Shown: positions 1 through 13,295 of the stretch, piece after piece
How the letters are laid out: the number at the start of each line of letters is the position of its first letter
How positions within the stretch are numbered: position 1 is the stretch's first letter
Assembly: GCA_900315095.1 (NCBI GenBank)
Contig: OMXS01000018.1
Location: 21,801-85,800 of the forward strand
DNA from: an uncultured Prevotellaceae bacterium
Lineage (GTDB): Bacteria > Bacteroidota > Bacteroidia > Bacteroidales > Bacteroidaceae
Reading direction: 5' to 3'
Length of the DNA stretch: 64,000 bases
Program-made: the position numbers and the translations under genes
The notes under the pieces: generated by a model
The model's database searches: none
What the model was told of the DNA's origin: nothing
What the model saw: the letters and a program-made list of their open reading frames with translations, nothing else

Positions 1-1
1 T

Positions 2-817
2 AAAAAAGGTGTCGTCTTAAGGAACGGTGATATTTGGTGTTTTAACGATTTTACCTATTATAAGAGAGAATTGACGGACATTGAATTAGAATTGTGGTTC
101 ACACCTACAAATGTTCATGAATATGTAGAGTTCATATCGCCCAGTGTAATATTTATTTCAGAAGGAGATCATGTGAATATTAATTATAATCCACAGGACA
201 AAAAGGCATTAGAACTGAAATTTCCTCGTAATAAATTGGCAGAAACTATTGATTTATTTTTTGAAGATATATCATATGAACAAATTTTAGATGAAATCAC
301 ACGAAAAGTAGATGAACTTGATATAGATGCTATAATTGATTCATATGAGACTAAATTTAGTCATGAAAGTTTTCAGATGAATTCTGATACTGAAGGTGAA
401 AGATACCGTCTTGACCGAGATGCCATTTATACAGATGAATATCTCGCTAAACTTCTACCTCCTATTCATGACTATTACGATGATAGAACAGCTTGTCACG
501 CACGCTATCCAGACCACACAAATCCTTATAAGAAAAAATATGAATTTGGACAAATCCTGAGCACTTTCGATAAAAAGGAAGGAGATGATTTATTACATTC
601 TTTTCGCGGAACTGGTAACATTTTTAGAGATGCACACAATTTAAAAACTAAAGATGCTGAGGTACGTAAAGAAGCAAGAGAAAAATATAGCAGAAAAGGC
701 CACATGGATTTTTTGGTCAATTGTAGAATCTCGGAAATCATAAATAAAAAGTTGGAAATAGAATCAAGACTTCACATAAAACAAGCAGAAAATGAATCTT
801 ACAATCATAGTAGATGA
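2..817 (+). CDS. Low-GC hypothetical protein, 5'-partial (frame open from window start)
   Basis: ORF track starts at TTG 71, but the same frame is open from position 2 (KKGVVLRNGDIWCFNDF...). AT-rich, acidic, no recognisable motif. Confidence 0.7.
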   Translation, partial: KKGVVLRNGDIWCFNDFTYYKRELTDIELELWFTPTNVHEYVEFISPSVIFISEGDHVNINYNPQDKKALELKFPRNKLAETIDLFFEDISYEQILDEITRKVDELDIDAIIDSYETKFSHESFQMNSDTEGERYRLDRDAIYTDEYLAKLLPPIHDYYDDRTACHARYPDHTNPYKKKYEFGQILSTFDKKEGDDLLHSFRGTGNIFRDAHNLKTKDAEVRKEAREKYSRKGHMDFLVNCRISEIINKKLEIESRLHIKQAENESYNHSR

Positions 818-1214
818 CAGACATACTACATAGGTATCACTATATAGCAATCTCACATAAGGTTTATTCATGTCAATCCTGAATATTTGCCAACCATTTC
901 CTATAGTAAAAAGGGGGCTTGTGTTGGATTAATAATTTAATCACGGTTGACAGCAGAGGAGCCCCAAACTAACATTCAGAGGTAATGCAGATTGTAAGTA
1001 GGTTAATTGTTCCCAAAATGAAGCCCAAAAGCAATGATGGGAACATTAGATGACTAGAGCCATTTGCCAACCAGCATGACTACCACGACATCAGATATGA
1101 AGAATCCCAGGACGAAGAAGAACCAGAAGAACCACTGGGCATAGTGGCCCTAATTGCTTGCTATTTTATCTGGTCAATCTCCCAAACAACGATAGTAGAT
1201 AGGGGTATTAGGCT

Positions 1215-2000
1215 TCACTCGCCTTCAGGTCGGGGGCGGAAGATGTCATCAAGATGTTTCTTTGAGTAATAGGTCCTCCCATATTCTCGCTTGGTGGGAA
1301 TATGACGGCGGTAGGCTTGGGTGCACAAGGATTCCTTGGTCGTGGAATAGAGGGATTCTGCCTCATCCGTTGTTAGCCACTCTGTCAGGGCTTCAATCTC
1401 GGCAGAAACTCCGAAGAGCGCATCCATGTGCTTGCGGCTATAATAGTTCTTGCCAGCAATCTTGCAAATGGGTACTTGGTTATTCTTGGCAGAAGTGTAG
1501 AGCCATGAACGCTTTACTTTGTAAATTGCCATAACATCCTCGCCTGAGATGTATTCAAGAGGCTCGATGTTCTGAACAGAATCCTCTTTTCTCGCTGGCT
1601 TACTTGAAGCACGTCTTTTCAACGAAAGGGAAGAAAGAATCATAGGCTTGTATGTTGGCAATACTCTATGATAAGGATTGCCAGCAAGCATCTTCTCGAT
1701 GTCAGCCTTGCGGATGAAAGCCATACGGTTGCTGATTCGTGATGCAGGGAGTTTACCCTCGTTTACCAACTTGTAAACGTACTGACGGGAGCATCCCATG
1801 AGGATTGCAGCCTTGGAGAATGTAAGATACTCCTGGCTGGCGATGTCTATAACTGGCTGGACTGCCTTCAAAAAGTCCTGCTGTTTCTTCTTGCGCTGAG
1901 CCTTTGCCGCCTCGGCACAGTGTTCTGAACAATACCTCTGCGAGCCGCTGTTACAAGTGAACTCCTTGCCGCAGAAGGCGCATTTTCTTGTCTTTCTCAT
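1215..2000 (-). CDS. Excisionase-like protein: N-terminal CxxC..CxxxC zinc finger plus three HTH_17 (MerR-like) repeats, probably C-terminally truncated
   Basis: CAFCGKEF..YCSEHC; HTH repeats YLTFSKAAILMGCSRQYVYKLV, YISGEDVMAIYKVKRSWLY and WLTTDEAESLYSTTKESL. Ends abruptly at RPRPEGE. Confidence 0.8.
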   Translation of the reverse strand: MRKTRKCAFCGKEFTCNSGSQRYCSEHCAEAAKAQRKKKQQDFLKAVQPVIDIASQEYLTFSKAAILMGCSRQYVYKLVNEGKLPASRISNRMAFIRKADIEKMLAGNPYHRVLPTYKPMILSSLSLKRRASSKPARKEDSVQNIEPLEYISGEDVMAIYKVKRSWLYTSAKNNQVPICKIAGKNYYSRKHMDALFGVSAEIEALTEWLTTDEAESLYSTTKESLCTQAYRRHIPTKREYGRTYYSKKHLDDIFRPRPEGE

Positions 2001-2339
2001 TTGACTCCTTTTAATGTGGTTTTACAATCAATTTCTTGCAAACCGCCACGGAGTGAACTTTCGTCAATCATTGACACCTATTGTCAAATTATTCCACGAT
2101 GTCACGTACTTCAAATGAGGTCACTTCCTTGTTCTTTTCCCTCTCGTTCATCAGTCAACCTTTGTACACACTTGTAAACCCTTGTCAACCCTGTCCACGA
2201 GATGACAAAATAAAAGCCCTCAAAATTCTCCGCGGTAGAAATGCGTTGCAAAGGTAAGCGGATTTTTGAGAACCACCAAAAAGCAAGTCTGAAGTGTTAA
2301 AATCTTTCATTGTTTATAGTTGTTTAGAGGTCTCTAAAT
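1215..2339 (-). mobile_element. Remnant end of a Bacteroidales integrative/mobilizable element (excisionase gene, its promoter region and the element end)
   Basis: Excisionase-like gene with -7 promoter (caaaggta 2249-2256 on +). Abrupt junction with the LRR gene at ~2339/2340. No integrase in the window. Confidence 0.55.
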
Positions 2340-2747
2340 ACAACCTGCAAATGCGAAAGTGCCTATAGATGTTACCGAATTAGGAATTGTTATTGACGTT
2401 AGACCATTACACAAAAAGAAAGCACTACTGCCAATTTCTGTAACTGTATTAGGTATAGTTACGGATGATACACCACTCCAGTAAAATGCTTCACTGCAAA
2501 TTTTAGTTACTGTATATGTTCGGTTTTTATAAATAACCTCAGACGGAATAACAACCGAACCCTGATAACCTGAATTAGAGTCACTTTTGGGTGCTACTGC
2601 GAGTTCGGTTCCATCATTTATATATATATAATAGATGGTTACACCTTCAGAATTTTCAACTGCGATGTCATAGGCGTAAGTTTTTGCTCCTGTAAGGATC
2701 AGAAGGAGCAATAAGAGCATATAACGATAATAATTGTTTGTTTTCAT
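2334..2747 (-). pseudogene. BspA-type leucine-rich-repeat surface protein, truncated after ~3 repeats
   Basis: Signal peptide, YDIAVENSEGVTIYY N-terminal domain and TIPNSVTSIG-AF-GC repeats. The frame stops mid-repeat (FAGC-I-stop), with no C-terminal domain. Confidence 0.8.
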
Positions 2748-2798
2748 GATGTTTTGATGTTTATAGTTAGTGTTTACGTTATTTCAAAGGTATACGAA

Positions 2799-2962
2799 AA
2801 AAAACGTGGACTGTTTACTAAGTCTACGTTCTATCAGGTATCGCCAAACACCATAGCAGCCTAAACTTGTAAAAGCCCACGCCATCTGGCGTGAACCATT
2901 TACTTTATACCATAGGCATATTTTTTAAAAGTTAATACTTACGAATGCAAAGATAAACATTT
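2799..2962 (-). promoter_or_regulatory. Promoter + MPMV uORF + attenuator-like leader, copy A
   Basis: -7 box TATCTTTG (2948-2955) and ATGCCTATGGTATAA (2905-2919). A 64-nt block (2799-2862) ending in a hairpin plus T-tract is 63/64 identical to 10424-10487. Confidence 0.75.
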
Positions 2963-3088
2963 TATTTTATAAGATGTGGTTTTGAAGAAGTTTTTTTCAA
3001 AGAAGAGGAAAAGAAGTACATGATAAGGGGGATTTCTTCCTCTTAGTCGCTCAACCCTTTAGGGGTGCTTGTTCCCGAAGGGTCTCAA

Positions 3089-3189
3089 GAAGGGGGAGTT
3101 GAGGGGGATTGTCTTGTATAGGTCTACTTTATAATGAAACACTAGCTTTACAATCCCCGCCTAGCCTCCCCTTACTAAGGGGCGGAAAT
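3089..3189. repeat. REPIN-like inverted repeat doublet 1
   Basis: Partial left arm AAGGGGGAGTTGAGGGGGATTGT, 37-nt spacer, and 40-nt right arm ACAATCCCCGCCTAGCCTCCCCTTACTAAGGGGCGGAAAT. Confidence 0.85.
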
Positions 3190-3235
3190 GTTGCACCGGT
3201 TAATCATAAGAGATTGATGCAACATCTCTGTACAA

Positions 3236-3274
3236 TTCTCCCCTTTACTAGGGGGCGGAAATACCGCAATCCCC
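3236..3274. repeat. Degenerate REP copy overlapping the DUF559 stop codon
   Basis: TTCTCCCCTTTACTAGGGGGCGGAAATACCGCAATCCCC contains the CCCYTTACTARGGGGCGGAAAT motif. Confidence 0.7.
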
Positions 3275-3676
3275 TATATACATGTCTTTAACATATCCTT
3301 TTATTTGTTGCGGATTCTCTCTAAACCACTTTATACTCTCTGTAATAACCTCAATATTATTGAATACGACATTATTACTAAACCTCACTACGGTGATACC
3401 CTCTTCATTTATGTATTTAGTTCGTTCCATGTCAGCATTATATTGCTCGGAATTGTCATGGGGTTCACCGTCAAGTTCTATGCAGAGCTTTATTTCAGGA
3501 CAGTAAAAGTCCATAATATATGGTCCTATGCTATGTTGCCTGCGGAATCTCAATCCCTCTATTTGTTTGTTTTTCAACACTTTCCATAATGTACTTTCTG
3601 CTGCGGTAGAGTTGTTCCTCAGACTATTTCTTTTGATTTTGGCATCTGCTAGTGTGAAAACTCTTTCTTTTGACAT
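3248..3676 (-). CDS. DUF559 family (Vsr/PD-(D/E)xK-like) endonuclease
   Basis: LRNNSTAAESTLW..FRRQHSIGPYIMDFYC..CIELDGEPH..D.ERT....G..V.RF.N family signature. Confidence 0.9.
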   Translation of the reverse strand: MSKERVFTLADAKIKRNSLRNNSTAAESTLWKVLKNKQIEGLRFRRQHSIGPYIMDFYCPEIKLCIELDGEPHDNSEQYNADMERTKYINEEGITVVRFSNNVVFNNIEVITESIKWFRENPQQIKGYVKDMYIGDCGISAP

Positions 3677-3709
3677 TATTCTTAGCGTTTTAAATTACGT
3701 TTCTATTAT

Positions 3710-3817
3710 ATTTCTCCCTCTTAGTAAGGGGGAGTTGAGGGGGATTGTATTCTGCAAGAATCAGGGACATGTGTTTTACAATCCCCGCCTAACCTCCCCT
3801 TACTAAGGGGCGGAAAT
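3710..3817. repeat. REPIN-like inverted repeat doublet 2
   Basis: Left arm 3710-3748 and right arm 3778-3817 are inverted repeats. The right arm is 39/40 identical to 3150-3189. Confidence 0.9.
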
Positions 3818-3871
3818 GTTCCTGACTTGGTTTTGCTGCTTGGCTTGTCCAAGAACTACTAGACGGAAATA

Positions 3872-6106
3872 TTACACTCTCGTCACTTGCTTCACTCCCT
3901 TCACTGTCCTCAGCTTCTTTATCAATGCTTCCAGACGCTGGGTGTCTTCTACATTTACTGAGAGGGTGCCACTGAAGAGGCCGTCATTACTGTCGATGTT
4001 TATGCTGCGCATCATTATCTTTTCCTCTTTGGAGATGATGCTGGTGATGTTGTTCACTATGCCGATGTCATCATTGCCTATGATACGCAGGGAGGTGCTG
4101 TACTGTGAAGTGCCTTTTCCACTCCATCTTGCCCTCACTATCCTGTATCCAAACCTACGACGCATCTCTGGAGCATTAGGGCAGTCAGTACGATGAATCT
4201 TGATGCCTCCATTCACTCCTACAAAGCCAAACACTGAGTCTCCATAGATAGGGTGGCAGCAACGTGCCAGTTGATAGTCAAGTCCCTTGATGTTCTTGTC
4301 TATCACCAGCTCATCGTCACTTACATGTTCACTCAGTTCATTGGGGTTGTCATAGCTGAACTCCTCTGCACTTCGTGCCTGCATGGCAGTCTGAGTCTGC
4401 AGTTCAGGATTCTTCAGAAGGTTGTATTTCTCTATGATGAGGTTGAGGTCGAGAGTGCCATCAGCTATTTGATGATAGAAGTCTGTGGTCTGCTTGAATC
4501 CCATTTTCTTGATGAGTTGGTTCATCACAGCCTCGTCCATCTCTATCTTCTTGTTCTTCATCCTTCGCTCCATCATCTCCTTTGCCATCAGGCTCTCCTT
4601 CACCTGAGTCTCCTTGAGTGCAAAGCGAATCTTGCTCTTGGCATGACTTGTCTTTACATAGGTGAGCCAGTCACGCTTGGGTTTCTGGTTGTTCGAGGTG
4701 ATAATCTCTATCTGGTCTCCACTCTGCAGTACATGGCGGAAGTTCACTATCTTGTTGTTTATCTTTGCACCAGTACACCTGTTGCCCACATTGGTGTGTA
4801 TCATATATGCAAAGTCGAGCACTGTGGCACCCTTTGGAAGCTTGAAGAGGTCGCCCTTTGGAGAGAAGACATACACCTCATCCTCATAGAGATTCATTCG
4901 GAACTCATCCATCACCTGCATGTCATCACTGTTCTCTATGGCATTGCGGATGTTCTTGAGCCACTCATCCAGTCCACTCTCTCCCTTCACTCCCTTGTAA
5001 CGCCAGTGGGCAGCCACACCTTTCTCTGCCACTTCATCCATTCTCTCAGTGCGTATCTGCACCTCAACCCACTTTCCTTCAGGACCAAGCACCGTGATGT
5101 GCAGACTCTCATAGCCATTGGTCTTTGGCACAGAGAGCCAGTCACGCAGTCTCTTGGGGTTGGGCTGATACATGTCTGTGATGATTGAGAACACCTGCCA
5201 GCACTGTGTTTTCTCCAGGGCATGGAACTTCTTCTCGTCATCCAGTTCAGGAACATCAAGAATGATACGTATTGCAAAGAGGTCATAGATGCCGTTGAAG
5301 CCACACTGTTGTTTCTTCATCTTCTGCCAAATGCTGTGAATGCTCTTGGTGCGGCCCTTCATGTGGTATTTGAACCCTGCAGCGTTAAGTTTCTCTGCAA
5401 TAGGACCTATGAACCTCTCTATATAGGCATCACGGCTCTTCTTTGTGGCATTCAGGTTGTCCTTAATCATGTAGTAGGCATCATGCTCAAGGTATTTCAG
5501 CGAGAGGTCTTCCAGTTCACTCTTCAGCTTGTACAGTCCCAGCTTATGAGCCAGAGGTGCATAGAGATAGCTTGCCTCTTCAGATACACGATGCTTTGCT
5601 TCAATGTTCTCAGCATCACGTATCTGTCTCATGAGGTTCACTCGCTCAGCAATCATAATCAGGATAACCCTCATGTCCTCAGCAAAGGAGAGCAGCAGGT
5701 TACGGAAGTTCTCACTCTCTATGACAGGGTTTTTCTTGTATAGTGTCTGTATCCTCACCAGTCCGTTGATGATGTTTGCCACACCCTCTCCGAAGCTCTC
5801 CTTCACAGCCTCCTTGTCGAACACCTCATTATTATATGAGCAGTAGAGCAGGGTGGCTATGATGGCATCCTTGCCCAGACCTATCTGTTCTGTGCCTAAG
5901 AGTGCTGTCTGCAGACTCTTCACTATGGGGTTCAGCCCGAAGGCATCTCTCTGCAGTTCATCATTGGCATAGGCCTCGTTGAGCCTTCTTATGATGTGTC
6001 TCTTCTCATCCTTGCTCAGCGAGGGACTCATCACTCGTGAGAGACTTCTTACCAGTGCATAAGCCTCATGACGCTCTTCAACAGTGAATATGAAACTCTT
6101 GGTCAT
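3872..6106 (-). CDS. relA: Long RelA/SpoT homolog, (p)ppGpp synthetase with degenerate HD domain, TGS and ACT domains
   Basis: GRTKSIHSIWQKM, YDLFAIRII, PKTNGYESLH, EVQIRT, AAHWRYK, TGS (GATVLDFAY) and C-terminal ACT domain. Confidence 0.9.
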   Translation of the reverse strand: MTKSFIFTVEERHEAYALVRSLSRVMSPSLSKDEKRHIIRRLNEAYANDELQRDAFGLNPIVKSLQTALLGTEQIGLGKDAIIATLLYCSYNNEVFDKEAVKESFGEGVANIINGLVRIQTLYKKNPVIESENFRNLLLSFAEDMRVILIMIAERVNLMRQIRDAENIEAKHRVSEEASYLYAPLAHKLGLYKLKSELEDLSLKYLEHDAYYMIKDNLNATKKSRDAYIERFIGPIAEKLNAAGFKYHMKGRTKSIHSIWQKMKKQQCGFNGIYDLFAIRIILDVPELDDEKKFHALEKTQCWQVFSIITDMYQPNPKRLRDWLSVPKTNGYESLHITVLGPEGKWVEVQIRTERMDEVAEKGVAAHWRYKGVKGESGLDEWLKNIRNAIENSDDMQVMDEFRMNLYEDEVYVFSPKGDLFKLPKGATVLDFAYMIHTNVGNRCTGAKINNKIVNFRHVLQSGDQIEIITSNNQKPKRDWLTYVKTSHAKSKIRFALKETQVKESLMAKEMMERRMKNKKIEMDEAVMNQLIKKMGFKQTTDFYHQIADGTLDLNLIIEKYNLLKNPELQTQTAMQARSAEEFSYDNPNELSEHVSDDELVIDKNIKGLDYQLARCCHPIYGDSVFGFVGVNGGIKIHRTDCPNAPEMRRRFGYRIVRARWSGKGTSQYSTSLRIIGNDDIGIVNNITSIISKEEKIMMRSINIDSNDGLFSGTLSVNVEDTQRLEALIKKLRTVKGVKQVTRV

Positions 6107-6135
6107 ACAGTTTTTATTTTAAAGTAGTTTTTTTA

Positions 6136-6175
6136 GGAAGATAGAGGAAGGTAGAGGAAGATAGAAGGAGATAGA
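6136..6175. repeat. 4 x 10-bp tandem repeat (GGAAGATAGA)
   Basis: ggaagataga ggaaggtaga ggaagataga aggagataga. Confidence 0.8.
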
Positions 6176-6203
6176 GGACATCGCCTTACAGCATATAGCC
6201 ATT

Positions 6204-6350
6204 AACCATCACCCAACACCTAACATCCATCAACCTTCAACCATCACCCATCATCCTTCACCCTTCACCCCTCAACCTTCAACCCTCAACCCTCAACCTT
6301 CAACCCTCAACCTTCATCCTTCACCCCTCATCCTTCACCCCTCACCTCCC
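6204..6350. repeat. 21 x degenerate heptamer tandem repeat (consensus AVCCHTC)
   Basis: aaccatc acccaac acctaac ... aaccttc aaccctc ... acccctc, in register throughout. Confidence 0.9.
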
Positions 6351-6359
6351 TTTTTCTTG

Positions 6360-6418
6360 CAAAGTTATGAAATTTTCCTTCATTTCTTTCTTAATTCAGA
6401 AAAAAGTAACTATATTTG
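6360..6418. promoter_or_regulatory. Divergent Bacteroidetes promoters for relA and the DUF4301 gene
   Basis: -7 boxes TAACTTTG on - (6360-6367) and TATATTTG on + (6411-6418). Confidence 0.65.
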
Positions 6419-6457
6419 CGTGAGTTTTTCAACGTAACTACTAAAAATACCATAATT

Positions 6458-7975
6458 ATGCTATCAAATTCAGACCTTAAACAACTAGCTCAGAAAGGAA
6501 TAACACCTGAGCAAATCGAGAATCAACTGCAAGAGTTTAAAACTGGTTTCCCATTCCTTCGACTGGAGGGACCTGCTGCTGTGGGCAATGGCATCGTGGC
6601 TCCTACAGAGGCTGAGTGTCAGGACTATGTTAAGACATGGAACGACTACAAGGCTGAGGGAAAGAAGATTGTGAAGTTTGTTCCTGCCAGTGGAGCAGCA
6701 AGCCGTATGTTCAAGGACATGTTTGCATTTGTTGATGCTCCCTATGATGTGCCTACAACAGACTTCGAGAAGGAGTATTTCAACAACATTGAGAAGTTCG
6801 CCTTCTACGGTGCTCTGGATGAGGTGTGCAAGAAGAACAATGGCAAGGGAATCAAGGAACTCATTGCTGAGGGCAACTATAAGGCTGTGGCAAAGAACAT
6901 GCTCGACAAGAGTGGACTCAACTATGGTCAACTGCCTAAGGGACTTCTCCTGTTCCACAACTATCCTGAAGGACCACGCACTCCAATGGAGGAACATCTC
7001 GTAGAGGGTGCTCTCTATGCTGAGAGTGGGGCAGAGGCTAATGTTCACTTCACTGTGAGTCATGAACACCTGCAGCTCTTCGAGCAGAAAGTGGCTGACA
7101 AACAGGCTCAGTATGCTCAGAAGTATGGAATAAAGTACAACATCAGCTTCTCTGAGCAGAAACCAAGCACAGACACTGTGGCTGCCAACCCAGACAACAC
7201 TCCTTTCCGTAATGAGGATGGCTCACTATTGTTCCGTCCAGGTGGACATGGAGCACTCATCGAGAACCTCAATGAAATCTCTGCCGATGTAGTGTTCATC
7301 AAGAACATTGACAATGTGGTGCCAGACCGTCTGAAGCCTGAGACAGTGACATACAAACAGGTAATCGCAGGTATCTTGGTTGCTCTTCAGAAGAAAGTGT
7401 TCCACTATCTTGAGGTGCTTGAGAGCGGTGCCTACAGTCATGAGACTCTTGAGGAGATCATCCGCTTTGTAAAGAATGACCTCTGCTGCAAGAAGAATGA
7501 CATCAAGGAACTTGAAGATGCCGAGCTGGTAATCTTCCTCAAGGAGAAACTCAACCGTCCTATCCGTGTTTGTGGAGTGGTTAAGAATGTGGGTGAACCA
7601 GGTGGTGGACCATTCCTCACATACAACCAGGATGGCACTGTCAGCCTGCAGATACTTGAGAGCAGTCAGATAGACAAGAACAATGAGGAGTACATGCGCA
7701 TGTTCAAAGAGGGAACACACTTCAACCCCGTTGACCTCGTTTGTGCCATCAAGGACTACAAGGGAAAGCCATTCAACCTGCCTGAGTATGTCGACAAGAC
7801 CACAGGCTTCATCAGCAGCAAGAGTAAGAACGGCAAGGAACTCAAGGCCCTTGAGCTGCCAGGACTGTGGAATGGTGCTATGAGCAACTGGAACACCATC
7901 TTCGTAGAGGTTCCCCTTGGCACCTTCAACCCCGTGAAGACAGTCAATGACCTGCTTCGTGAACAGCATCAGTAA
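6458..7975 (+). CDS. DUF4301 family protein (UDP-sugar pyrophosphorylase-like motifs)
   Basis: KFVPASGAASRMFK, FRPGGHGALIENL, FIKNIDNV, GEPGGGPF, THFNPVDLVC, KALELPGLWNGAM. Start moved to ATG 6458, downstream of the promoter. Confidence 0.9.
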   Translation: MLSNSDLKQLAQKGITPEQIENQLQEFKTGFPFLRLEGPAAVGNGIVAPTEAECQDYVKTWNDYKAEGKKIVKFVPASGAASRMFKDMFAFVDAPYDVPTTDFEKEYFNNIEKFAFYGALDEVCKKNNGKGIKELIAEGNYKAVAKNMLDKSGLNYGQLPKGLLLFHNYPEGPRTPMEEHLVEGALYAESGAEANVHFTVSHEHLQLFEQKVADKQAQYAQKYGIKYNISFSEQKPSTDTVAANPDNTPFRNEDGSLLFRPGGHGALIENLNEISADVVFIKNIDNVVPDRLKPETVTYKQVIAGILVALQKKVFHYLEVLESGAYSHETLEEIIRFVKNDLCCKKNDIKELEDAELVIFLKEKLNRPIRVCGVVKNVGEPGGGPFLTYNQDGTVSLQILESSQIDKNNEEYMRMFKEGTHFNPVDLVCAIKDYKGKPFNLPEYVDKTTGFISSKSKNGKELKALELPGLWNGAMSNWNTIFVEVPLGTFNPVKTVNDLLREQHQ

Positions 7976-8056
7976 AGAACAATCTCTGCCACCTATTGCC
8001 AAAACTCCCTTTCTGTTAGGGTGCGGGTAGGGCAGAGCAAAATATTCATCCACATT

Positions 8057-8093
8057 GAAGACTGAGGACATTGTTCTTCAGTCTTCTTTGTTT
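8057..8093 (+). terminator. Intrinsic terminator hairpin between convergent genes
   Basis: GAAGACTGAGGAC-ATT-GTTCTTCAGTCTTC followed by T-rich tail. Confidence 0.75.
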
Positions 8094-8168
8094 ATTATCT
8101 ATATTCGTTATTTGCAAAAACTATAATCTAATAATATACCATACCATGTTGACGATAACCTGATAAAG

Positions 8169-8924
8169 TCAGTAGTAAAGAGAAAGCATAGAAGAGAGTA
8201 AGGCAGGTGGAATAGAGTAGGTGTTAGGCAAAACAACGTATAAATTGTTCTTCGTGGCAAAGGTAAAGTTCTCAGGGACATAGTAATTGACGCCATTAGC
8301 ATAGGTTTGCACATAATGTCGATGTTTTATGATCCACCCATGATTCACCGCAAATTTTATGGTTTTTATGACCGTGACACCGCTACACCCAAGTTCCTTT
8401 TTTAGCCTTTCGATGCTTATTCCATACTCCTCATACACTTGATTTGGCGAGTTAAGCACCCCATTACGCACCATTTTCTTCACCATTTTCTTTACCGCTT
8501 TATAGTCGGTATTCGGTTTGGGACTACTGTTTTCTTTAAGCACATATTTTATGAACTCCTTCCTTAATTGTACTCTAATTATAATAAAGGACCTAAGTGA
8601 ACTGATTACATGCTTGTAAGAAGAAAAATCGAAAAAACTGATGTCAATATTCCCTTTGATATTGCGTGAACTGAGACTATTCAATACCAATATCTTGTTC
8701 TTGCCAGAACCTTCGAAATGGATGAACTTGTTTTTCTCTAAAATTGGCATATAATTCTTCAGCGTATTATAGGGCACCCTTGTCACAGAACAAAGTCTGT
8801 GAAGGTTGTAACGCTTTAAACGTGATTTTTTAATGATGCTTTTCAGGTAGATGGCAAGCGCAACTATCTTCTGGTCATCTTTGTTACCCCTACATTTGTC
8901 AAGTAATTTTTGTTTAATATACAT
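8169..8924 (-). CDS. AT-rich basic hypothetical protein with two putative wHTH regions, resembling Bacteroidales prophage replication-region proteins
   Basis: Lys-rich. HTH-like segments YNLHRLCSVTRVPYNTLKNYMPILEKNKFI and GISIERLKKELGCSGVTVIKTIKFAVNHGWI. The family assignment is from memory. Confidence 0.6.
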   Translation of the reverse strand: MYIKQKLLDKCRGNKDDQKIVALAIYLKSIIKKSRLKRYNLHRLCSVTRVPYNTLKNYMPILEKNKFIHFEGSGKNKILVLNSLSSRNIKGNIDISFFDFSSYKHVISSLRSFIIIRVQLRKEFIKYVLKENSSPKPNTDYKAVKKMVKKMVRNGVLNSPNQVYEEYGISIERLKKELGCSGVTVIKTIKFAVNHGWIIKHRHYVQTYANGVNYYVPENFTFATKNNLYVVLPNTYSIPPALLSSMLSLYY

Positions 8925-9199
8925 TCTTGTCTTTTAATTAATTCGTAATTGTTATTCCGTTCTCTGCCAGAGTGTTACCCTGCTTTACTTTCACAATAGA
9001 AAGGGTGGTAATTCTTAACATAAAAACGAATGAAATTTAATTAACTCTCAAATATTTTTCTGTCTCCTAACGTATCCTCATTTCACCCGCAATGTTTGTA
9101 GGTAAAAGCCCCACAAGCTAATGTTCTTAAACCTGTGGGGCAAGGATTCAAACTCTTAAACAAGAATTCTCCGCAGGCATGAAAAGCCGTTACTGTCTT

Positions 9200-9643
9200 T
9201 TAAGGTGTCACCTCATCATCACCCTTGTCCACATCGTTCTTAGGAAGTTCCTTGACTGTGGAACCTGAGGTTAAGACATTCCGGCGCTGGCCATTCTTGT
9301 CAACAGTCACAACGGGTTGGAAATTGACGTGCAATCCCTTCACATTCTTTGCTGCAGAAAACTCCTTGGCGGTGGGTGCTGGAGATGTGGAGAGCCCCAT
9401 CTTGAATGTACCCAGTCCGTCAATTCTTACAGCATAAGACTTCTGAATGAAATCCTTGATTACCTCAACCATCTCAGTAAGCACTGCTAGAGCATCAGCC
9501 TTCTTTGCTGTGGTGTTGTCCTGAATGCGTTGAGCAATCTCATCAAGATTGATGGTGTCAATCATCTTGGCACGTGCGTACCACTCTCCCTTGTGCGTGG
9601 AGTTGACCCTGTTGTCCTGAACTAATCTGTAAAATACTGCCAT
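9200..9643 (-). CDS. HU-family histone-like DNA-binding protein (Bacteroidetes expanded type)
   Basis: GEWYARA....TINLDEIAQRIQDNTT.K.AD..AVL....EV......V.IDGLGTFK.G signature. Confidence 0.9.
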   Translation of the reverse strand: MAVFYRLVQDNRVNSTHKGEWYARAKMIDTINLDEIAQRIQDNTTAKKADALAVLTEMVEVIKDFIQKSYAVRIDGLGTFKMGLSTSPAPTAKEFSAAKNVKGLHVNFQPVVTVDKNGQRRNVLTSGSTVKELPKNDVDKGDDEVTP

Positions 9644-9998
9644 AACATACTAAAGTTTATTGGTAAAAAATTAAGTTATCCTTGGACACAATCCCTCTTG
9701 TATCCAGTTACAAAGTTACAAATTATTCTCGACATAACAAAATGATTCTCAAATATTTACGGTTAAAAAGGGTTAATTTCCCAATCGGATTACATTTCAA
9801 TCTGAAACGTGCTCCAAGTAAGCACAAATTGCATTCCAACTAACCATTAACAGGCCTGCGATTTGTATACAAACCATCACCTAGTTTATATACAAACTGC
9901 ACTCCGTTTTATATATAAACTGCATGCTATTTGGTTGCTTTTTGCATCCCCGAAAGCCATCATTTACATTGCAACTCATTGGCAATATGGCTGGAGAA

Positions 9999-10040
9999 GG
10001 GTAGGGGCATGCGTCATGTATGCCCTTTACCTATTTTTTG
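9999..10040 (+). terminator. Terminator-like hairpin immediately upstream of REPIN 3
   Basis: GGGTAGGGGCAT...ATGCCCTTTACC followed by TATTTTTT. Confidence 0.45.
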
Positions 10041-10060
10041 TAGATAAATAAGAGGCAAAT

Positions 10061-10190
10061 CCAAGTCAGGAATATTTCCGCCTCCTAGTAGGGGGAGGTC
10101 AGGAGGGGATTGTGATGATAGTGTTTCATGATAGAGTAGACTTACACGAAACAATCCCCCTCAACTCCCCCTTGCCAAAGGGGAGAAAAT
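10061..10190. repeat. REPIN-like inverted repeat doublet 3 (inverted relative to doublets 1 and 2)
   Basis: Arms 10074-10113 and 10151-10190. The first arm is 35/40 identical to 3778-3817, the spacer is 28/37 to the doublet-1 spacer, and flank 10061-10072 is the reverse complement of 3819-3830. Confidence 0.9.
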
Positions 10191-10282
10191 CTCTTATCAT
10201 GTATATTTTTTTCATTCCTCTGGAGCTTCAGTTGCTTTCCATATTGAAAATTTCTCCTCAAAAGAGTACTTCATATAAAAAT

Positions 10283-10487
10283 AAATGTTTATCTTTGCAT
10301 TCGTAAGTATTAACTTTAAAACCGTATGCCTATGGTATAACGAAATAATTACATAAGGAAGAAGCGTTTGCTTTTTGTTCTTGTTCTATCGAAATCGCCA
10401 ATTTCAACAAAGCAGCAAGACTAAGGCTGCTATGGTGTTTGGCGATACCTGATAGAACGTAGACTTAGTAAACAGTCCGCGTTTTTT
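10283..10487 (+). promoter_or_regulatory. Promoter + MPMV uORF + attenuator-like leader, copy B
   Basis: 35/35 promoter block shared with 2928-2962 and uORF at 10326-10340. 10383-10401 is complementary to 10439-10458. A hairpin plus T-tract ends at 10487. Confidence 0.75.
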
Positions 10488-10516
10488 GTATTTTATATTT
10501 TTTTAAATTTTAAATT

Positions 10517-10762
10517 ATGGATAATAATAACAACACCAAGTTCTCATTCAATTCGGATGATATTGTAGCAAGCATCCTATCTGGTATCGGCGTTCTTGGA
10601 ACACTCGCGGGACTATTTATTGTGATTGTCTCACTCTTTGGCAGAAATACACATTACGCATCGGGATTTTCTGTGCTTTTTAGCTCCCTTTTCATGCTCG
10701 GATTCTCAATCTTAGTCAGGGCTGCTGTTAAGTATTTAAATCAGAGAGAAGAGCAAAAATAG
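10517..10762 (+). CDS. Small two-TM membrane protein
   Basis: Two long hydrophobic segments. A-rich translation initiation region downstream of the leader. Confidence 0.75.
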   Translation: MDNNNNTKFSFNSDDIVASILSGIGVLGTLAGLFIVIVSLFGRNTHYASGFSVLFSSLFMLGFSILVRAAVKYLNQREEQK

Positions 10763-10774
10763 TGAATATGTATT

Positions 10775-11227
10775 ATGAATAATATTATTAAGAAAAGTCT
10801 TTTATTGATAGCTACCATTCTACATCTTGCATCATGTTCAGATAAAACACCTGAACAACCAAGAAATATTAAAGTAGAAACGTGGGCAGATAAGGCAGAA
10901 GCTTTTTTTCCTCAGGCACTTGACGAGGCTGTTCCTCATGACTGGCAGACACAACCTTATATCACCGATGTCGATATTTGGTGTAACAATGACAGTACAA
11001 AGACATACGTCAAAAGATTTCATATGAAATATTACAACCAATTCGGTGGCATGTCTAATGGACGTTTTTTCTATGTGTACGTATGGGATAAAGATAAGGG
11101 AGTCATAAGGTACAATATAAGTGAGAATGGAAGTTCGTATTTACTGAGAGATGGCAATGATGATGAATGGGCGTATCAGGACAAGGCAGTTACATATTGC
11201 ATTGTTTTCGGCGGCTCATATAATTAA
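10775..11227 (+). CDS. Hypothetical lipoprotein
   Basis: Signal peptide II MNNIIKKSLLLIATILHLASC-SDK. Confidence 0.75.
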   Translation: MNNIIKKSLLLIATILHLASCSDKTPEQPRNIKVETWADKAEAFFPQALDEAVPHDWQTQPYITDVDIWCNNDSTKTYVKRFHMKYYNQFGGMSNGRFFYVYVWDKDKGVIRYNISENGSSYLLRDGNDDEWAYQDKAVTYCIVFGGSYN

Positions 11228-11361
11228 ATAATTACGCAGTAGAGGGAATACATTCTATTTTATGTGCCTTTTTTGTATTAATTAATGGTTCCTTCTTTGA
11301 CTCAATAGGGGTATATTCAAGCTTTTCATTTATGCTATTTATCATAATGTCGAATCATGAA

Positions 11362-11477
11362 TAACTTTAAACTTTGAACTTGTAACTTTGAACATTAAAC
11401 AATATATATTGCTTTCACTCGTAGGTAATCATAAAGTTACAAGTTCAATGTTCAATGTTCAAAGAAAAAGAATGTTC
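11362..11477. repeat. Inverted heptamer-repeat element
   Basis: (taacttt/aaacttt/gaacttg/gaacatt)n facing (aaagtta/caagttc/aatgttc)n around a ~35-nt core. Confidence 0.75.
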
Positions 11478-11480
11478 AAG

Positions 11481-11520
11481 AAAAAATGCCCGGACACTTT
11501 AGCATGTCACGGGCACTTTG
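11481..11520 (-). terminator. pgm terminator
   Basis: AAAAAATGCCCG-GACA...TGTC-ACGGGCA hairpin with T-tract on the - strand. Confidence 0.7.
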
Positions 11521-11546
11521 TTGTTTAAGGTTTAAGGAATTCAGGA

Positions 11547-13295
11547 TTACAGTCCGAGGTCTTTCTTTATTAACTCAATCTTCTCAGCTGCTGCATTTGA
11601 GCAACGCTCATAGCATCCTGCACACTTCATTGTGTTGTCCTTAACCTCTGTGTAGAACTTGATCTTTGGCTCTGTTCCTGATGGACGTACACTAATCTTG
11701 GTGCCATCCTCACAGAACCACTGCAGTACGTTGCTGGTGTCTGGCATGTCAATCTTTGTAACAGTACCATCAGCATTCTTCTGCTCAAGTGTCTTGTAGT
11801 CCTTCCACAGGCACACTTTAGAGCCGCCAAGCTCCTTAGGAGGATTGTTGCGGAAGTTCTCCATCATGGCCTTAATCTCATCAGCACCGCTCTTTCCTGG
11901 CTTTACTACGTTGATAGTCACCTCTTTAGAGAAGCCGTACTCCTGATAGATGTTCATCAGAAGGTCGTAGAGAGTCATGCCATTGTCCTTTGCCCATGCT
12001 GCAATCTCACAGATGAGACAGATGCTGGCAGGTGAATCCTTGTCACGTACCTTGTCAAATGGCAGGAATCCGAAGCTTTCCTCACCACCACCGATGTATT
12101 TCTTCACACCTTCATTGACGCGGATTTCATTGGCAATCCACTTGAATCCTGTGTAGCAGTCCTTGAGTTCTACACCGTTCTTGTCGGCAATCTTCTTGAT
12201 TACCTCTGTTGTAACGATGGTCTTCACAAGGAACTCGTTGCCCTTGAGTTGTCCCAGTTTCTTCTTGTTTGCTATGATATACCAGCAGAACATCATGCAG
12301 GTCTGGTTGCCATTGAGGATTTCCCACTCACCCTTGTCATTACGGCATACAATAGCCAGACGGTCAGCATCAGGGTCACTAGCAATCACAAGGTCTGCAT
12401 TGAGACGTGTTCCAAGCTTCATACCCAGTGTCATTGCCTCTGCATTCTCTGGGTTTGGAGAAACAACTGTCGGGAAGTTACCATCGATTACCATCTGCTC
12501 TGGCACCACATGGATGTTCTGGAATCCCCATGAACGCAGTGCCTCAGGGATAATCACACGACCTGTTCCATGCATTGGAGAGTAAACAATGTTGAGGTCT
12601 TTGTGGCGAAGAATCACATCCTGGTCAACCATTGCTTCCTTAACAGCCTGCAGGTAGTCCCAGTCCATCTCACCACCGATAATCTCGATGAGTTCCTTGT
12701 TAGGCTCAAACTTAACATCTTCAATCTTCACCTTGTTCACTTCATCGATGATGCCCTTGTCATGTGGAGCCAGAACCTGTGCTCCATCATCCCAGTAAGC
12801 CTTGTATCCATTGTACTCCTTCGGGTTGTGAGAAGCTGTAACATTTACTCCAGCCTGAGCTCCTAACTGCCTGATAGCGAATGAGATTTCAGGTGTTGGA
12901 CGAAGACTTTCAAAGAGATAAGCCTTGATGCCATTGGCAGAGAAGATGTTAGCCACAGTCTCAGCAAACTGACGTCCATGATTACGACAGTCATGACCTA
13001 CAACCACAGAGAGGTCTTTCTTTCCCGGGAAAGCCTTCAGTATATAGTTGGCAAAGCCCTGAGTGGCCATACCTACGATATAAACATTCATGCGGTTGGT
13101 GCCTGCTCCCATGATACCACGAAGTCCACCAGTGCCAAACTCAAGTGAGCGATAGAAACTGTCTATGAGTTCTGACTTGTCAGGATTGTCCAGCATAGCC
13201 TGAACCTCCTTGCGTGTTTCCTCGTCGAATGAAGGAGAAAGCCACTGCTTGGCAGCCTGTTCACACTGAGCGATAAGTTCTTTGTTATTTTCCAT
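11547..13295 (-). CDS. pgm: Phosphoglucomutase / phospho-sugar mutase
   Basis: FGTGGLRG, TASHNP phosphoserine loop, DPDADR, GEESFG, RPSGTEPKIK. Start at MENNK. Confidence 0.92.
   Translation of the reverse strand: MENNKELIAQCEQAAKQWLSPSFDEETRKEVQAMLDNPDKSELIDSFYRSLEFGTGGLRGIMGAGTNRMNVYIVGMATQGFANYILKAFPGKKDLSVVVGHDCRNHGRQFAETVANIFSANGIKAYLFESLRPTPEISFAIRQLGAQAGVNVTASHNPKEYNGYKAYWDDGAQVLAPHDKGIIDEVNKVKIEDVKFEPNKELIEIIGGEMDWDYLQAVKEAMVDQDVILRHKDLNIVYSPMHGTGRVIIPEALRSWGFQNIHVVPEQMVIDGNFPTVVSPNPENAEAMTLGMKLGTRLNADLVIASDPDADRLAIVCRNDKGEWEILNGNQTCMMFCWYIIANKKKLGQLKGNEFLVKTIVTTEVIKKIADKNGVELKDCYTGFKWIANEIRVNEGVKKYIGGGEESFGFLPFDKVRDKDSPASICLICEIAAWAKDNGMTLYDLLMNIYQEYGFSKEVTINVVKPGKSGADEIKAMMENFRNNPPKELGGSKVCLWKDYKTLEQKNADGTVTKIDMPDTSNVLQWFCEDGTKISVRPSGTEPKIKFYTEVKDNTMKCAGCYERCSNAAAEKIELIKKDLGL

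What the first reader, a model, noticed from the sequence alone, without database searches (positions are those of the whole stretch)
3089..3830. DUF559 nuclease cassette inserted in a REPIN, with its apparent empty site 6 kb away
Seen: the DUF559 gene lies in a 628-bp unit bounded by 40-bp direct repeats (3150-3189 and 3778-3817, 39/40 identical), each the right arm of an inverted-repeat doublet. Removing that unit would join the doublet-1 spacer, one arm and the flank TTCCTGACTTGG. That arrangement is what occurs inverted at 10061-10190 (arm 35/40, spacer 28/37, flank 12/12). The arm hairpin CCCCTT-ACT-AAGGGG shows a compensatory T-A to C-G change in the 10 kb copy, and the gene's stop codon lies inside a further degenerate REP. 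Known: REP/REPINs are normally tied to HUH (RAYT/TnpA-REP) transposases, whereas DUF559 is a Vsr-like PD-(D/E)xK nuclease. Inference: this may be a REP-mobility system in which a DUF559 nuclease propagates REPINs and/or homes into the REP arm.
Basis: partly seen in the sequence, partly recalled or inferred. Interest (0 to 1): 0.8.

Follow-up and report, generated by a model that had tools for sequence, protein, structure and literature searches.

The report
DUF559 nuclease cassette among triplex-type repeats
A small Vsr-like (DUF559) nuclease gene in a Prevotella genome sits in a fixed 670-bp block of folded DNA repeats, and across 151 related genomes each such gene occurs together with its own repeat family, which suggests an undescribed enzyme-and-repeat partnership like RAYT/REPIN, although the proposed "fresh insertion with an empty site 6 kb away" does not hold.

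Summary
- the DUF559 gene at 3248-3676(-);
- 46-nt direct repeats 628 bp apart;
- two inverted doublets;
- the stop codon inside a hairpin;
- a compensatory hairpin change;
- an inverted copy near 10 kb that lacks the unit.

The insertion story fails. The 10-kb copy is an old paralogue of about 450 bp that also exists in the sister species, and that species already carries the gene at the relA flank. Contigs from other strains keep block 3150-3817 while their surroundings differ. The two flanking arms also change subtype between strains, so they are not a target-site duplication.

The broader idea gains support.
- Both DUF559 genes of this genome are bracketed by arms with the C-stem/loop/G-stem/loop/G-stem build of published intrastrand-triplex (TMECO/BoxC) repeats.
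- Each arm family is multi-copy only in the genomes that hold the cognate DUF559 subfamily.
- The genome's RAYT belongs to a different REP, and no RAYT is found in three genomes rich in the second family.
- The protein is under purifying selection (dN/dS 0.065).
- At sufC|sufD the states are empty, gene-bearing and gene-less.

No biochemical evidence exists, and read-level tests were closed.

The parts
3248..3676 (-). DUF559 (Vsr-like, EDxHD-type PD-(D/E)xK) nuclease gene, 142 aa; motif ...MDF...IELDGEPHD... is intact.
   Evidence: Pfam PF04480 at E 2.4e-32. PDB 3HRL at E 3.7e-16. dN/dS 0.065 against the sister-species orthologue. The identical protein is found on 18 metagenome contigs.
3778..3817 (+). 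A-type arm, direct-repeat copy 2 (the full repeat is 3775-3820). It is the outer arm of doublet 2 and abuts the relA 3' flank.
   Evidence: The orthologous arm in the sister species is 39/40 identical to this arm and 40/40 to the arm at 3150-3189.
3749..3777 (.). Spacer of doublet 2 (type 2). The same spacer type occurs in the doublet at C41:133945-134054.
3710..3748 (-). B-type arm, the inner arm of doublet 2, 33 nt upstream of the DUF559 start codon.
   Evidence: (I1, I2).
3235..3262 (+). Minimal hairpin (ATTCTCCCCTTTACTAGGGGGCGGAAAT) at the 3' end of the gene. It contains the stop codon at 3248-3250.
   Evidence: (D2, D3).
3190..3234 (.). Linker ('sp38') between arm 3150-3189 and the hairpin. 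A copy lies beside a doublet at C19:93195-93249. In contigs L127 and L130 a copy in the same orientation lies upstream of the gene.
3150..3189 (+). A-type arm, direct-repeat copy 1 (the full repeat is 3147-3192). Its outer end (3150) is the limit of the block shared by all strain variants.
3113..3149 (.). Spacer of doublet 1 (type 1), homologous to the spacer of the 10-kb copy and of C56:26998-27034.
3032..3112 (-). B-type arm of doublet 1, split in its loop by a nested 42-nt hairpin module (3048-3089). It is part of the strain-specific islet side.
   Evidence: The module is absent from strain contigs L123 and L125 and from the 10-kb copy.
3818..3841 (.). 24-nt flank between arm 3778-3817 and the end of relA, paralogous to 10050-10073.
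   Evidence: (I4).
10050..10190 (.). It is an old paralogue that is also present in the sister species.
10268..10500 (+). Remainder of the right paralogue: a Bacteroidetes-type promoter-like site (TATCTTTG at 10290-10297) and a conserved leader that ends in a terminator-like hairpin. Its inverted counterpart on the left is 2786-2977.
   Evidence: (I2, I3).

Best explanation
**What it is.** Window 3150-3817 is a stable module of about 670 bp. It holds a functional DUF559 (Vsr-like) nuclease gene set between 40-nt 'arms'. On the G-rich strand each arm reads C-stem / 3-nt loop / G-stem / 3-nt loop / second G-stem. This is the build of the published intrastrand-triplex repeats (TMECO/BoxC/PIT).

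**Its setting.** The module lies in a mosaic, BIME-like repeat cluster behind relA. It was already there in the common ancestor with the sister species.

**Partnership.** I read the gene and its arm family as one gene-repeat partnership, analogous to RAYT/REPIN but with an unrelated nuclease.
- Shown: the arm family exists as about 25-40 mostly gene-less copies.
- Shown: in the genomes sampled it is multi-copy only where the cognate DUF559 subfamily occurs.
- Shown: arms are gained, lost and swapped on the time scale of strains.
- Shown: rearrangement breakpoints fall at arm ends.

**Mechanism (inferred, not shown).** The nuclease recognises the folded arm, a hairpin with conserved mismatches and/or a triplex on single-stranded DNA. 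It nicks there, and repair or recombination then copies, converts or relocates arms and, more rarely, the whole cassette.

**The 628-bp unit.** It is the fixed spacing between the two outer A-type arms of the module. Its absence from the 10-kb copy reflects paralogy and arm-to-arm recombination, not a recent insertion.
For: **Architecture**
- Both DUF559 genes of the genome are bracketed by inverted arms of two different sequence families but the same build.
- The second cassette, at C49, pairs an arm whose second loop is CCG with an arm whose second loop is TTA. Holder et al. report the same pairing for inverted TMECO pairs in E. coli (PMC4666352).
- In the genus, 28 of 41 DUF559 loci have flanking inverted repeats at E<1e-5, against 0 of 81 shifted control intervals.
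- One flank (L044) fits the E. coli TMECO consensus letter for letter.
- The same arrangement flanks homologues in Acinetobacter, Sphingobium and Tidjanibacter.

**Co-occurrence**
- The family-1 arm motif gives 25 hits in this genome and 20 in G072. These are the only two of 151 genomes with the orthologous gene (94% identity). All other genomes give 0-3 hits.
- The family-2 motif gives 55, 37, 30 and 18 hits in G149, G133, G130 and G116. These are four of the five other genomes whose DUF559 is at least 67% identical to the C49 gene. Fisher p = 5e-7.
- By sufC identity these four are not this genome's nearest relatives.

**RAYT is not the partner**
- The one RAYT-like gene is flanked by a different, GTAG-tagged REP with about 55 copies.
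- No RAYT homologue was found in G130, G133 or G116.

**The protein is functional**
- pN 0.018 against pS 0.233, so dN/dS is 0.065.

**Mobility and turnover**
- Family-2 cassettes sit in at least 4 different loci.
- The sufC|sufD junction is empty in 27 species, gene-bearing here (488 nt), and holds gene-less repeat pairs in G072 and G106.
- Arms are present or absent at orthologous sites between G000 and G072.
- The identical protein occurs in 4 strain contexts whose breakpoints lie at arm ends.
- Arm subtypes are swapped between strains.

**Hairpin**
- The arm hairpin has three covarying pairs.
Against: - No nuclease activity, binding site or cut site is known for any DUF559 protein, so the link is correlative.
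- For family 1 the co-occurrence rests on two sister genomes. It cannot be separated from shared ancestry, and both genomes also share the RAYT orthologue (83%).
- Family 2 has exceptions. G055 has 7 repeat copies but no close DUF559. G110 has a 69%-identical gene but no motif hit. Several genomes are incomplete MAGs.
- The window's gene never appears absent from its site in any strain or species found, so it behaves as vertically kept.
- Gene-less family-1 doublets mostly have the opposite arm orientation (ACAAT ends facing inward) to the pair that brackets the gene. They are therefore not simple deletion derivatives of the cassette.
- No target-site duplication was seen.
- The cassette's low synonymous divergence against G072 (pS 0.23, against 0.61 for relA) lies within a very heterogeneous background of 0-0.69 over about 20 genes. 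It does not prove separate transfer.
- Triplex or hairpin repeats are reported to be unstable in themselves (PMC4666352), which could explain the breakpoints without any enzyme.
Confidence: 0.45

Rival explanations
1. Passenger model. The arms are self-unstable hairpin/triplex repeats that spread and recombine through host replication and repair alone. DUF559 is a small host or selfish gene that happens to sit in, or be carried with, repeat-rich intergenic DNA and does not act on the repeats.
For: - Holder et al. found higher genetic variability around TMECO sites and no mobility gene nearby (PMC4666352).
- The clusters here are mosaics of several unrelated modules.
- G055 has 7 family-2 copies without a close DUF559.
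- G072 and G106 keep gene-less pairs at sufC|sufD.
Against: - It does not explain why 28 of 41 DUF559 genes, against 0 of 81 control intervals, are bracketed by inverted arms.
- It does not explain why two unrelated arm families each follow their own DUF559 subfamily across 151 genomes.
- It does not explain why the same build flanks DUF559 in other phyla.
- It does not explain why the protein is under strong purifying selection.
Confidence: 0.27
2. A 628-bp DUF559 cassette recently homed or transposed into the right arm of a REPIN doublet and duplicated the arm. The doublet at 10061-10190 shows the site's empty state.
For: - The right copy lacks exactly the repeat-bounded 628 bp, and homology resumes in a shared 24-nt flank.
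- The two repeat copies are 45/46 identical.
Against: - The 10-kb copy is a paralogue at another locus and is conserved in the sister species.
- The sister species already has the gene and doublet 2 at the relA flank.
- In other strains the two flanking arms are as little as about 32/40 alike, with the same spacing.
- Spacer 1 and the left arm belong to a strain-specific islet that is absent from other strains.
Confidence: 0.08
3. RAYT model. The arms are ordinary REPs or REPINs mobilised by the genome's HUH/Y1 transposase (RAYT), and DUF559 is irrelevant.
For: - A RAYT-like gene exists at C26:61351-61887.
- Its REPs lie in the same mosaic clusters as the arms.
- G072 shares both the RAYT (83%) and family 1.
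Against: - The RAYT gene is flanked by a different, GTAG-tagged REP with about 55 copies of its own.
- G106 has a 60% RAYT orthologue but no family-1 arms.
- G130, G133 and G116 hold 18-37 family-2 copies and no RAYT homologue at E<=1e-10.
Confidence: 0.07
4. Regulatory or structural model. The arms are terminators or mRNA-stabilising hairpins kept by the host around a small repair-nuclease gene, and the co-occurrence reflects co-inherited operon architecture.
For: - The arms lie behind relA and around gene ends.
- The hairpin is conserved with covariation.
- Arms diverge less between species (95-100%) than the relA coding sequence does.
Against: - There is no T-run after the arms.
- The arms occur in both orientations and as doublets, inside coding frames (the sufD N-terminus reads through one), and at different loci in different species.
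- PIT/TMECO motifs showed no promoter or terminator activity in the work cited by PMC4666352.
Confidence: 0.05

Closest known systems
REPIN-RAYT systems (Bertels & Rainey 2011, PMC3116915; PMC3337134)
   Same: - Short hairpin repeats occur as inverted doublets with spacers, at tens of copies per genome.
- A low-copy nuclease-type gene is flanked by its own repeat family.
- The gene is kept vertically at a fixed locus in sister species.
- Each gene subfamily goes with its own repeat family.
   Different: - The enzyme is a Vsr-like PD-(D/E)xK/EDxHD nuclease of about 125-140 aa, not an HUH/Y1 transposase.
- The arms lack the GTAG/CGTC tag and carry a second G-run (triplex build).
- The genome's true RAYT has its own, different REP.
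- In the genus the DUF559 cassettes are also patchy and multi-locus, and often sit in frame inside host genes. This is unlike RAYTs.
Intrastrand-triplex repeats TMECO / BoxC / PIT (Holder et al. 2015, PMC4666352)
   Same: - The build is the same: C-stem of about 9 nt, loop of 3-6, G-stem of 9, loop of 3, second G-stem of 7-9.
- Repeats occur as inverted pairs. At the C49 cassette a TTA-loop arm is paired with a CCG-loop arm, as reported for E. coli.
- Copy number is patchy between close relatives.
- The repeats are linked with local rearrangement.
- One Prevotella DUF559 gene (L044) is flanked by the TMECO consensus itself.
   Different: - The sequence of the window's arms does not fit the TMECO consensus.
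- The arms have conserved extensions (ACAAT... and ...GGAAAT).
- The published work found no associated protein, whereas here a DUF559 gene sits between the arms.
- Triplex folding of these arms has not been tested.
Vsr-like (EDxHD) homing endonucleases such as I-Bth0305I (from my own knowledge and earlier scan notes; not read here)
   Same: - The catalytic fold and motif (E-x-D-G-x2-H-D) are the same.
- It is a small free-standing selfish gene.
- There are filled, gene-less and empty states at the orthologous sufC|sufD junction.
   Different: - There is no intron or intein context.
- The gene carries folded inverted repeats at its ends, and gene-less repeat copies exist.
- No empty allele was found for the window's own locus.
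Autonomous TIR transposon plus MITE pairs
   Same: - A gene lies between terminal inverted repeats.
- Family 2 has gene-less elements of 130-135 bp with the same ends in the same orientation (C26:645-790, C56:13250-13385, C52:6632-6760).
   Different: - There is no DDE, HUH or recombinase gene.
- No target-site duplication is seen.
- The interiors of the short elements show no homology to the cassette.
- Family-1 doublets have the opposite arm orientation.
Vsr very-short-patch repair endonuclease; PDB 3HRL 'endonuclease-like protein'
   Same: - The fold family is the same.
- 3HRL aligns over residues 23-120 at E 3.7e-16.
- The arm hairpins carry recurrent mismatches (T.C in 11 of 21 arms, C.A in 13 of 21). 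A mismatch-reading nuclease could recognise these (inference).
   Different: - There is no adjacent cytosine methyltransferase gene.
- The gene is repeat-bracketed and patchy in distribution, unlike a housekeeping repair gene.

Membership tests
DUF559 / Vsr-like EDxHD nuclease | Pfam PF04480 match above the gathering score | tested here: met
   111.5 bits against a cut-off of 20.6, E 2.4e-32.
DUF559 / Vsr-like EDxHD nuclease | Conserved acidic/His motif (D ... E-x-D-G-x2-H-D) present | tested here: met
   The sequence reads ...YIMDFYCPEIKLCIELDGEPHD... and aligns with 3HRL ...YIVDFMC...IVEADGGQH. The catalytic role of these residues is inferred.
DUF559 / Vsr-like EDxHD nuclease | Nuclease activity | not testable with these tools
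   A biochemical assay is needed.
REPIN-RAYT system | Hairpin repeats as inverted doublets, multi-copy, mostly intergenic | tested here: met
   22 near-full-length arms and 44 nhmmer hits; doublets at C14, C19, C39, C41 and C56.
REPIN-RAYT system | The repeats flank a single-copy HUH/Y1 (RAYT) gene | tested here: not met
   The only Y1_Tnp gene (C26) is flanked by a different REP. The arms flank DUF559 instead.
REPIN-RAYT system | GTAG or CGTC tag at the REP end (PMC3733652) | tested here: not met
   The arms start with ACAAT and end with GGAAAT. The RAYT-linked REP does carry GTAGGGGCG.
Intrastrand-triplex (TM/TMECO/BoxC/PIT) repeats | C-stem / loop 3-6 / G-stem / loop 3 / G-stem build (PMC4666352) | tested here: met
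   - A-type arm: CCGCCCCTT-AGT-AAGGGGAGG-(C/T)TA-GGCGGGG.
- B-type arm: CTCCCTCTT-AGT-AAGGGGGAG-TTG-AGGGGG.
- C49 arm: CCCCTCCCT-CAC-AGGGAGGGG-CCG-GGGGAGAG.

Intrastrand-triplex (TM/TMECO/BoxC/PIT) repeats | TMECO consensus CCCTCNCCC-N3-6-GGGNGAGGG-N3-GGGNGAGGG | tested here: not met
   The window's arms differ in sequence. The flank of another Prevotella DUF559 gene (L044) does fit the consensus.
Intrastrand-triplex (TM/TMECO/BoxC/PIT) repeats | Triplex forms in vitro | not testable with these tools
   CD or NMR on arm oligonucleotides is needed. My attempt to read a parallel third-strand code in the 10-kb arm gave only 5 of 9 matches.
Homing endonuclease gene | Filled and empty alleles of one site with precise boundaries | tested here: inconclusive
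   - Window locus: the gene is present in every strain and species found.
- sufC|sufD: empty in 27 species, gene-bearing in G000, gene-less pairs in G072 and G106. The boundaries overlap the sufC end and the sufD start.
TIR transposon with MITE derivatives | Gene-less copies with the same ends in the same orientation | tested here: inconclusive
   Met for family 2. Family-1 doublets are mostly in the opposite orientation.
TIR transposon with MITE derivatives | Target-site duplication and a recognised transposase | tested here: not met
   No target-site duplication at the C49, C26 or C56 elements. The 46-nt repeat varies between strains. The only ORF is DUF559.

The most novel reading that the evidence does not exclude
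DUF559 nucleases are the missing enzyme partners of the intrastrand-triplex (TMECO/BoxC/PIT-type) repeats. Together they would form a second repeat-and-enzyme system in bacteria, independent of RAYT. In this reading a Vsr-like nuclease reads the folded, mismatch-bearing arm and nicks it. That drives the copying, conversion and relocation of arms and of its own cassette, including in-frame lodging in host genes such as the sufD N-terminus here.
Probability: 0.3. Interest if true: 0.85.

Novelty: new variant of a known kind. Interest (0 to 1): 0.62.

Why it matters
DUF559 is a very large family of unknown function. The triplex-type repeats (BoxC/PIT/TMECO) have been known for about 30 years without a protein partner, and the 2015 survey states that no mobility function was found near them.

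If the partnership is real, three things follow.
- It gives both orphans a function.
- It adds a second, mechanistically different counterpart to RAYT/REPIN.
- It explains rearrangement hot spots and small in-frame insertions in housekeeping genes of gut and rumen Bacteroidota.

This window makes the question directly testable. It offers a 142-aa protein, two defined arm types, a second cassette with a different arm family in the same genome as a specificity control, and natural strain variants.

Tried and rejected
- **Rfam.** Scan of window 1-14000 at E<=0.1 gave no match, so the arms and the conserved leader are not a curated RNA family.
- **'Relatives' search.** It returned only species with about 70-74% identity in relA and no DUF559 at that site, so it was uninformative for alleles. 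My attempt to inspect their flanks first failed on a file-layout error.
- **Recent horizontal arrival of the cassette.** pS is 0.23 against 0.61 for relA (p = 4e-10). The background over about 20 genes runs from 0 to 0.69, so the result is suggestive only.
- **Short elements as deletion derivatives.** I looked for homology between the interiors of the gene-less family-2 elements and the C49 cassette and saw none. An apparent match in G072 turned out to be the sufD start codon region.
- **Pyrimidine-strand triplex code.** I tested whether the outer C-run runs parallel to the G-stem. It fits the window's arms (8 of 9) but not the 10-kb arm (5 of 9), so I rely only on the general build.
- **Literature.** 25 papers mention DUF559 and none links it to repeats or mobility.
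- **Technical failures.** Two regex scans timed out and were redone with simpler code.
Full report
**1. Observation**

- ORF 3248..3676(-) encodes a 142-aa protein. It matches Pfam DUF559 at E 2.4e-32 and PDB 3HRL, an 'endonuclease-like protein', at E 3.7e-16.
- Two 46-nt direct repeats, 3147-3192 and 3775-3820, are 98% identical and 628 bp apart. Each holds a 40-nt arm, ACAATCCCCGCCTA(G/A)CCTCCCCTTACTAAGGGGCGGAAAT.
- Each arm is the right half of an inverted doublet.
- The 22-nt core matches 5 times in the window against 0 expected.
- The stop codon lies inside a further hairpin, 3235-3262.

There are two corrections.
- The left arm of doublet 1 is complete (3032-3112) but is split in its loop by a 42-nt nested module at 3048-3089.
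- The similarity to the 10-kb copy covers about 450 bp. 2786-3192 plus 3818-3841 is an inverted paralogue of 10050-10500, in blocks of 73-91% identity, and it is the only such pair in the genome.

None of 500 shuffles reaches the observed score.

**2. The repeats in the genome**

The assembly is 3.24 Mb in 58 contigs, and the window is C11:21801-85800.
- A profile of the arm finds 44 hits, 22 of them near full length. They form an A type and a B type.
- They often stand as doublets: a B-type arm on the minus strand, a spacer of 23-37 nt, then an A-type arm on the plus strand. There are three spacer types.
- The clusters are mosaics that also hold other modules, BIME-like.
- On the G-rich strand an arm reads C-stem / 3-nt loop / G-stem / 3-nt loop / second G-stem. 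An example is CCGCCCCTT-AGT-AAGGGGAGG-TTA-GGCGGGG.

Holder et al. (PMC4666352) define this same build for intrastrand-triplex motifs (TMECO, formerly BoxC/PIT). They showed triplex folding in vitro. They also state that they never found transposase or integrase remnants near these motifs.

**3. Not RAYT**

- The genome has one Y1_Tnp/RAYT-like gene, at C26:61351-61887.
- It is flanked by inverted copies of a different, GTAG-tagged REP (GGGCGCACACGGTGGTACGCCCCTAC) with about 55 copies.

**4. A second DUF559 cassette in the same genome**

- The only other DUF559 gene, at C49:53365-53736(-), lies between sufC and sufD.
- It is bracketed by inverted arms of another sequence family: AAGACTCTCCCC-NNN-CCCCTCCCT-loop-AGGGAGGGG.
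- One arm has CCG and the other TTA in the second loop. This is the A+B pairing reported for E. coli TMECO pairs.
- The family has about 12-17 copies. They include gene-less elements of 130-135 bp with the same ends in the same orientation, at C26:645-790, C56:13250-13385 and C52:6632-6760.
- The sufD frame appears to start inside the cassette and to read through the right arm (the start codon is inferred).

**5. Generality**

- Homologues from other lineages are tightly flanked by 20-35-nt inverted repeats of the same build but different sequence. These lineages include other Prevotella, Tidjanibacter, Acinetobacter and Sphingobium.
- In 151 genomes of the genus, 65 carry DUF559, with 1-7 copies each.
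- Many of these matches lie in open frames of 300-1300 aa.
- Of 41 usable loci, 28 have flanking inverted repeats at E<1e-5, against 0 of 81 intervals shifted by 1 kb.
- One flank (L044) is CCCTCGCCC-TGT-GGGAGAGGG-GTA-GGGTGAGGG, the TMECO consensus itself.

**6. Co-occurrence**

- Family 1: the arm motif gives 25 hits in G000 and 20 in G072, and 0-3 (with a mismatch) elsewhere. G072 is the only other genome with the orthologous gene, at 94% identity.
- Family 2: the motif gives 55, 37, 30 and 18 hits in G149, G133, G130 and G116. These are four of the five other genomes whose DUF559 is at least 67% identical to the C49 gene. Fisher p = 5e-7.
- By sufC identity, many closer relatives of G000 have none.
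- RAYT homologues occur in only 20 of 151 genomes and were not found in G130, G133 or G116.

Caveats:
- Family 1 rests on two sister genomes that also share the RAYT.
- G055 has 7 copies but no close gene.
- G110 has the gene but no motif hit.
- Many of the genomes are incomplete MAGs.

**7. History of the window's locus**

- In Prevotella sp. UBA4330 (L013 = G072) the gene and doublet 2 lie at the same relA flank. Synteny breaks at the 3' end of the gene. There the sister species continues with EamA, truA and further genes. In G000 those genes lie 7 kb further on, beyond an islet with LRR_5 and HTH_17 genes.
- The 10-kb copy is present in G072 as well (L117). It is therefore an old paralogue, not the empty allele.
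- Against G072, DUF559 has pS 0.233 and pN 0.018, giving dN/dS 0.065. The protein is therefore functional.
- Its pS is well below that of relA (0.61). The background is too heterogeneous (0-0.69) to call this a separate transfer.

**8. Strain variants**

The identical 142-aa protein is on 18 metagenome contigs, in four contexts.
- (I) As in the window.
- (II) The gene, then the 3150-3189 arm, then an unrelated 163-aa ORF and EamA, with no islet.
- (III) As (I), but with other arm subtypes and without the 42-nt module.
- (IV) Two short contigs join the cassette, through another doublet, to the intergenic region on the DUF4301 side instead of to relA. This last case is unresolved. relA may be deleted or moved, and these are short assemblies.

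In all variants the block 3150-3817 is kept and homology breaks at arm ends. A-type arms always stand upstream of the gene (at -141, or -142 to -222 in some contigs) and at +487. Their mutual identity ranges from about 32/40 to 40/40.

So the 628-bp spacing is a fixed feature of the module. The near-identity in this window is recent arm conversion, not a target-site duplication.

Between G000 and G072, arms are present or absent at orthologous intergenic sites.

At sufC|sufD, 27 species are empty (gaps of 4-182 nt, most under 80), G000 has the 488-nt cassette, and G072 and G106 have gene-less pairs of 115 and 143 nt.

**9. Reading**

Shown:
- a conserved, selected nuclease gene in a fixed repeat module;
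- an arm build equal to that of triplex-type repeats;
- family-specific co-occurrence of gene and repeats;
- turnover of arms and cassettes;
- independence from RAYT, at least for family 2.

Inferred:
- the nuclease recognises and nicks the folded arm;
- the recurrent hairpin mismatches (T.C in 11 of 21 arms, C.A in 13 of 21) are a plausible handle for a Vsr-like enzyme;
- repair then spreads or converts arms.

The main rival is that DUF559 is a passenger in self-unstable repeats.

Earlier notes of this scan pointed me to BoxC/TMECO and reported similar cassettes elsewhere. I treated them as leads and tested the TMECO link against the paper and my own loci.

The library holds no paper that links DUF559 to repeats.

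**10. Verdict**

- The insertion and empty-site story is not supported.
- The nuclease-repeat partnership is supported by comparative evidence but remains unproven.
- I class it as a new variant of the RAYT/REPIN kind of system.

Noticed in passing
window 3048-3089 (also C35:1836-1917, C41:133801-133864, C13:135-210, C50:13303-13351): A 42-nt hairpin module (CGCTCAACCC...GGGTCTCAAG) sits exactly in the loop of both A-type and B-type arms. At this site it is absent from strain contigs L123 and L125 and from the 10-kb paralogue. It is therefore a filled/empty polymorphism of a nested mini-element that seems to target arm loops.
   Followed up: partly
window 2786-2977 (-) and 10268-10500 (+): A duplicated module holds a Bacteroidetes-type promoter-like site (TATCTTTG at 10290-10297) and a conserved leader of about 190 nt. 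The leader ends in a terminator-like hairpin plus U-run, about 25 nt before the start codons at 2747 and 10517. Pieces of about 100 nt recur several times in congeners at 75-86% identity. There is no Rfam match, and the fold z-score is only -1.5. It may be an attenuator or a small RNA.
   Followed up: partly
window 6171-6360: A C-rich tandem array (7/14-nt period, CCNTCAAC-like, about 9 copies of 14 nt) lies between the divergent relA and DUF4301 genes. In contigs L127 and L130 it directly abuts an arm doublet.
   Followed up: no
genome C49:53301-53795 (outside the window): The second DUF559 cassette lies between sufC and sufD. The sufD frame appears to start inside the cassette and to read through the right arm in frame. 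G072 and G106 hold gene-less arm pairs at the same junction, and 27 other species are empty.
   Followed up: yes
genome C26:61351-61887: A single RAYT-like Y1 transposase gene is flanked by inverted GTAG-tagged REPs (GGGCGCACACGGTGGTACGCCCCTAC, about 55 copies). This looks like an ordinary REP/RAYT system living beside the DUF559-linked arms. Orthologues occur in G072 (83%) and G106 (60%).
   Followed up: partly
window 1-3149 and C11:17975-21800: A strain-specific islet of about 7 kb lies between EamA and the DUF559 module. It holds a 485-aa ORF, 375-aa and 599-aa ORFs, an HTH_17 protein and an LRR_5 fragment. It is absent from G072 and from strain contigs L122 and L126, and its right end is the promoter-plus-doublet module.
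   Followed up: partly
loci L127 and L130 (metagenome contigs): Two contigs from different samples join the DUF559 cassette to the DUF4301-side intergenic region without relA. In L122 a doublet-2-like doublet also lies upstream of relA, so relA may be flanked by direct doublets in some strains and lost by recombination. Alternatively the contigs are misjoined.
   Followed up: partly
genus-wide, table: Many DUF559 matches in congeners lie in open frames of 300-1311 aa with no stop. The cassette therefore appears to be read in frame inside larger host genes.
   Followed up: no
locus L044 (G102:C43:37345-37740): A Prevotella DUF559 gene is flanked by inverted repeats that fit the E. coli TMECO consensus exactly (CCCTCGCCC-TGT-GGGAGAGGG-GTA-GGGTGAGGG).
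   Followed up: partly
G000 C39:1793-2428 against G072 C32 (L114 1-636): A 636-bp stretch is 99.7% identical between two species that are otherwise about 83-92% alike. In G072 it lies inside a 4.8-kb insert bounded by arm clusters. This points to recent exchange between the lineages.
   Followed up: no
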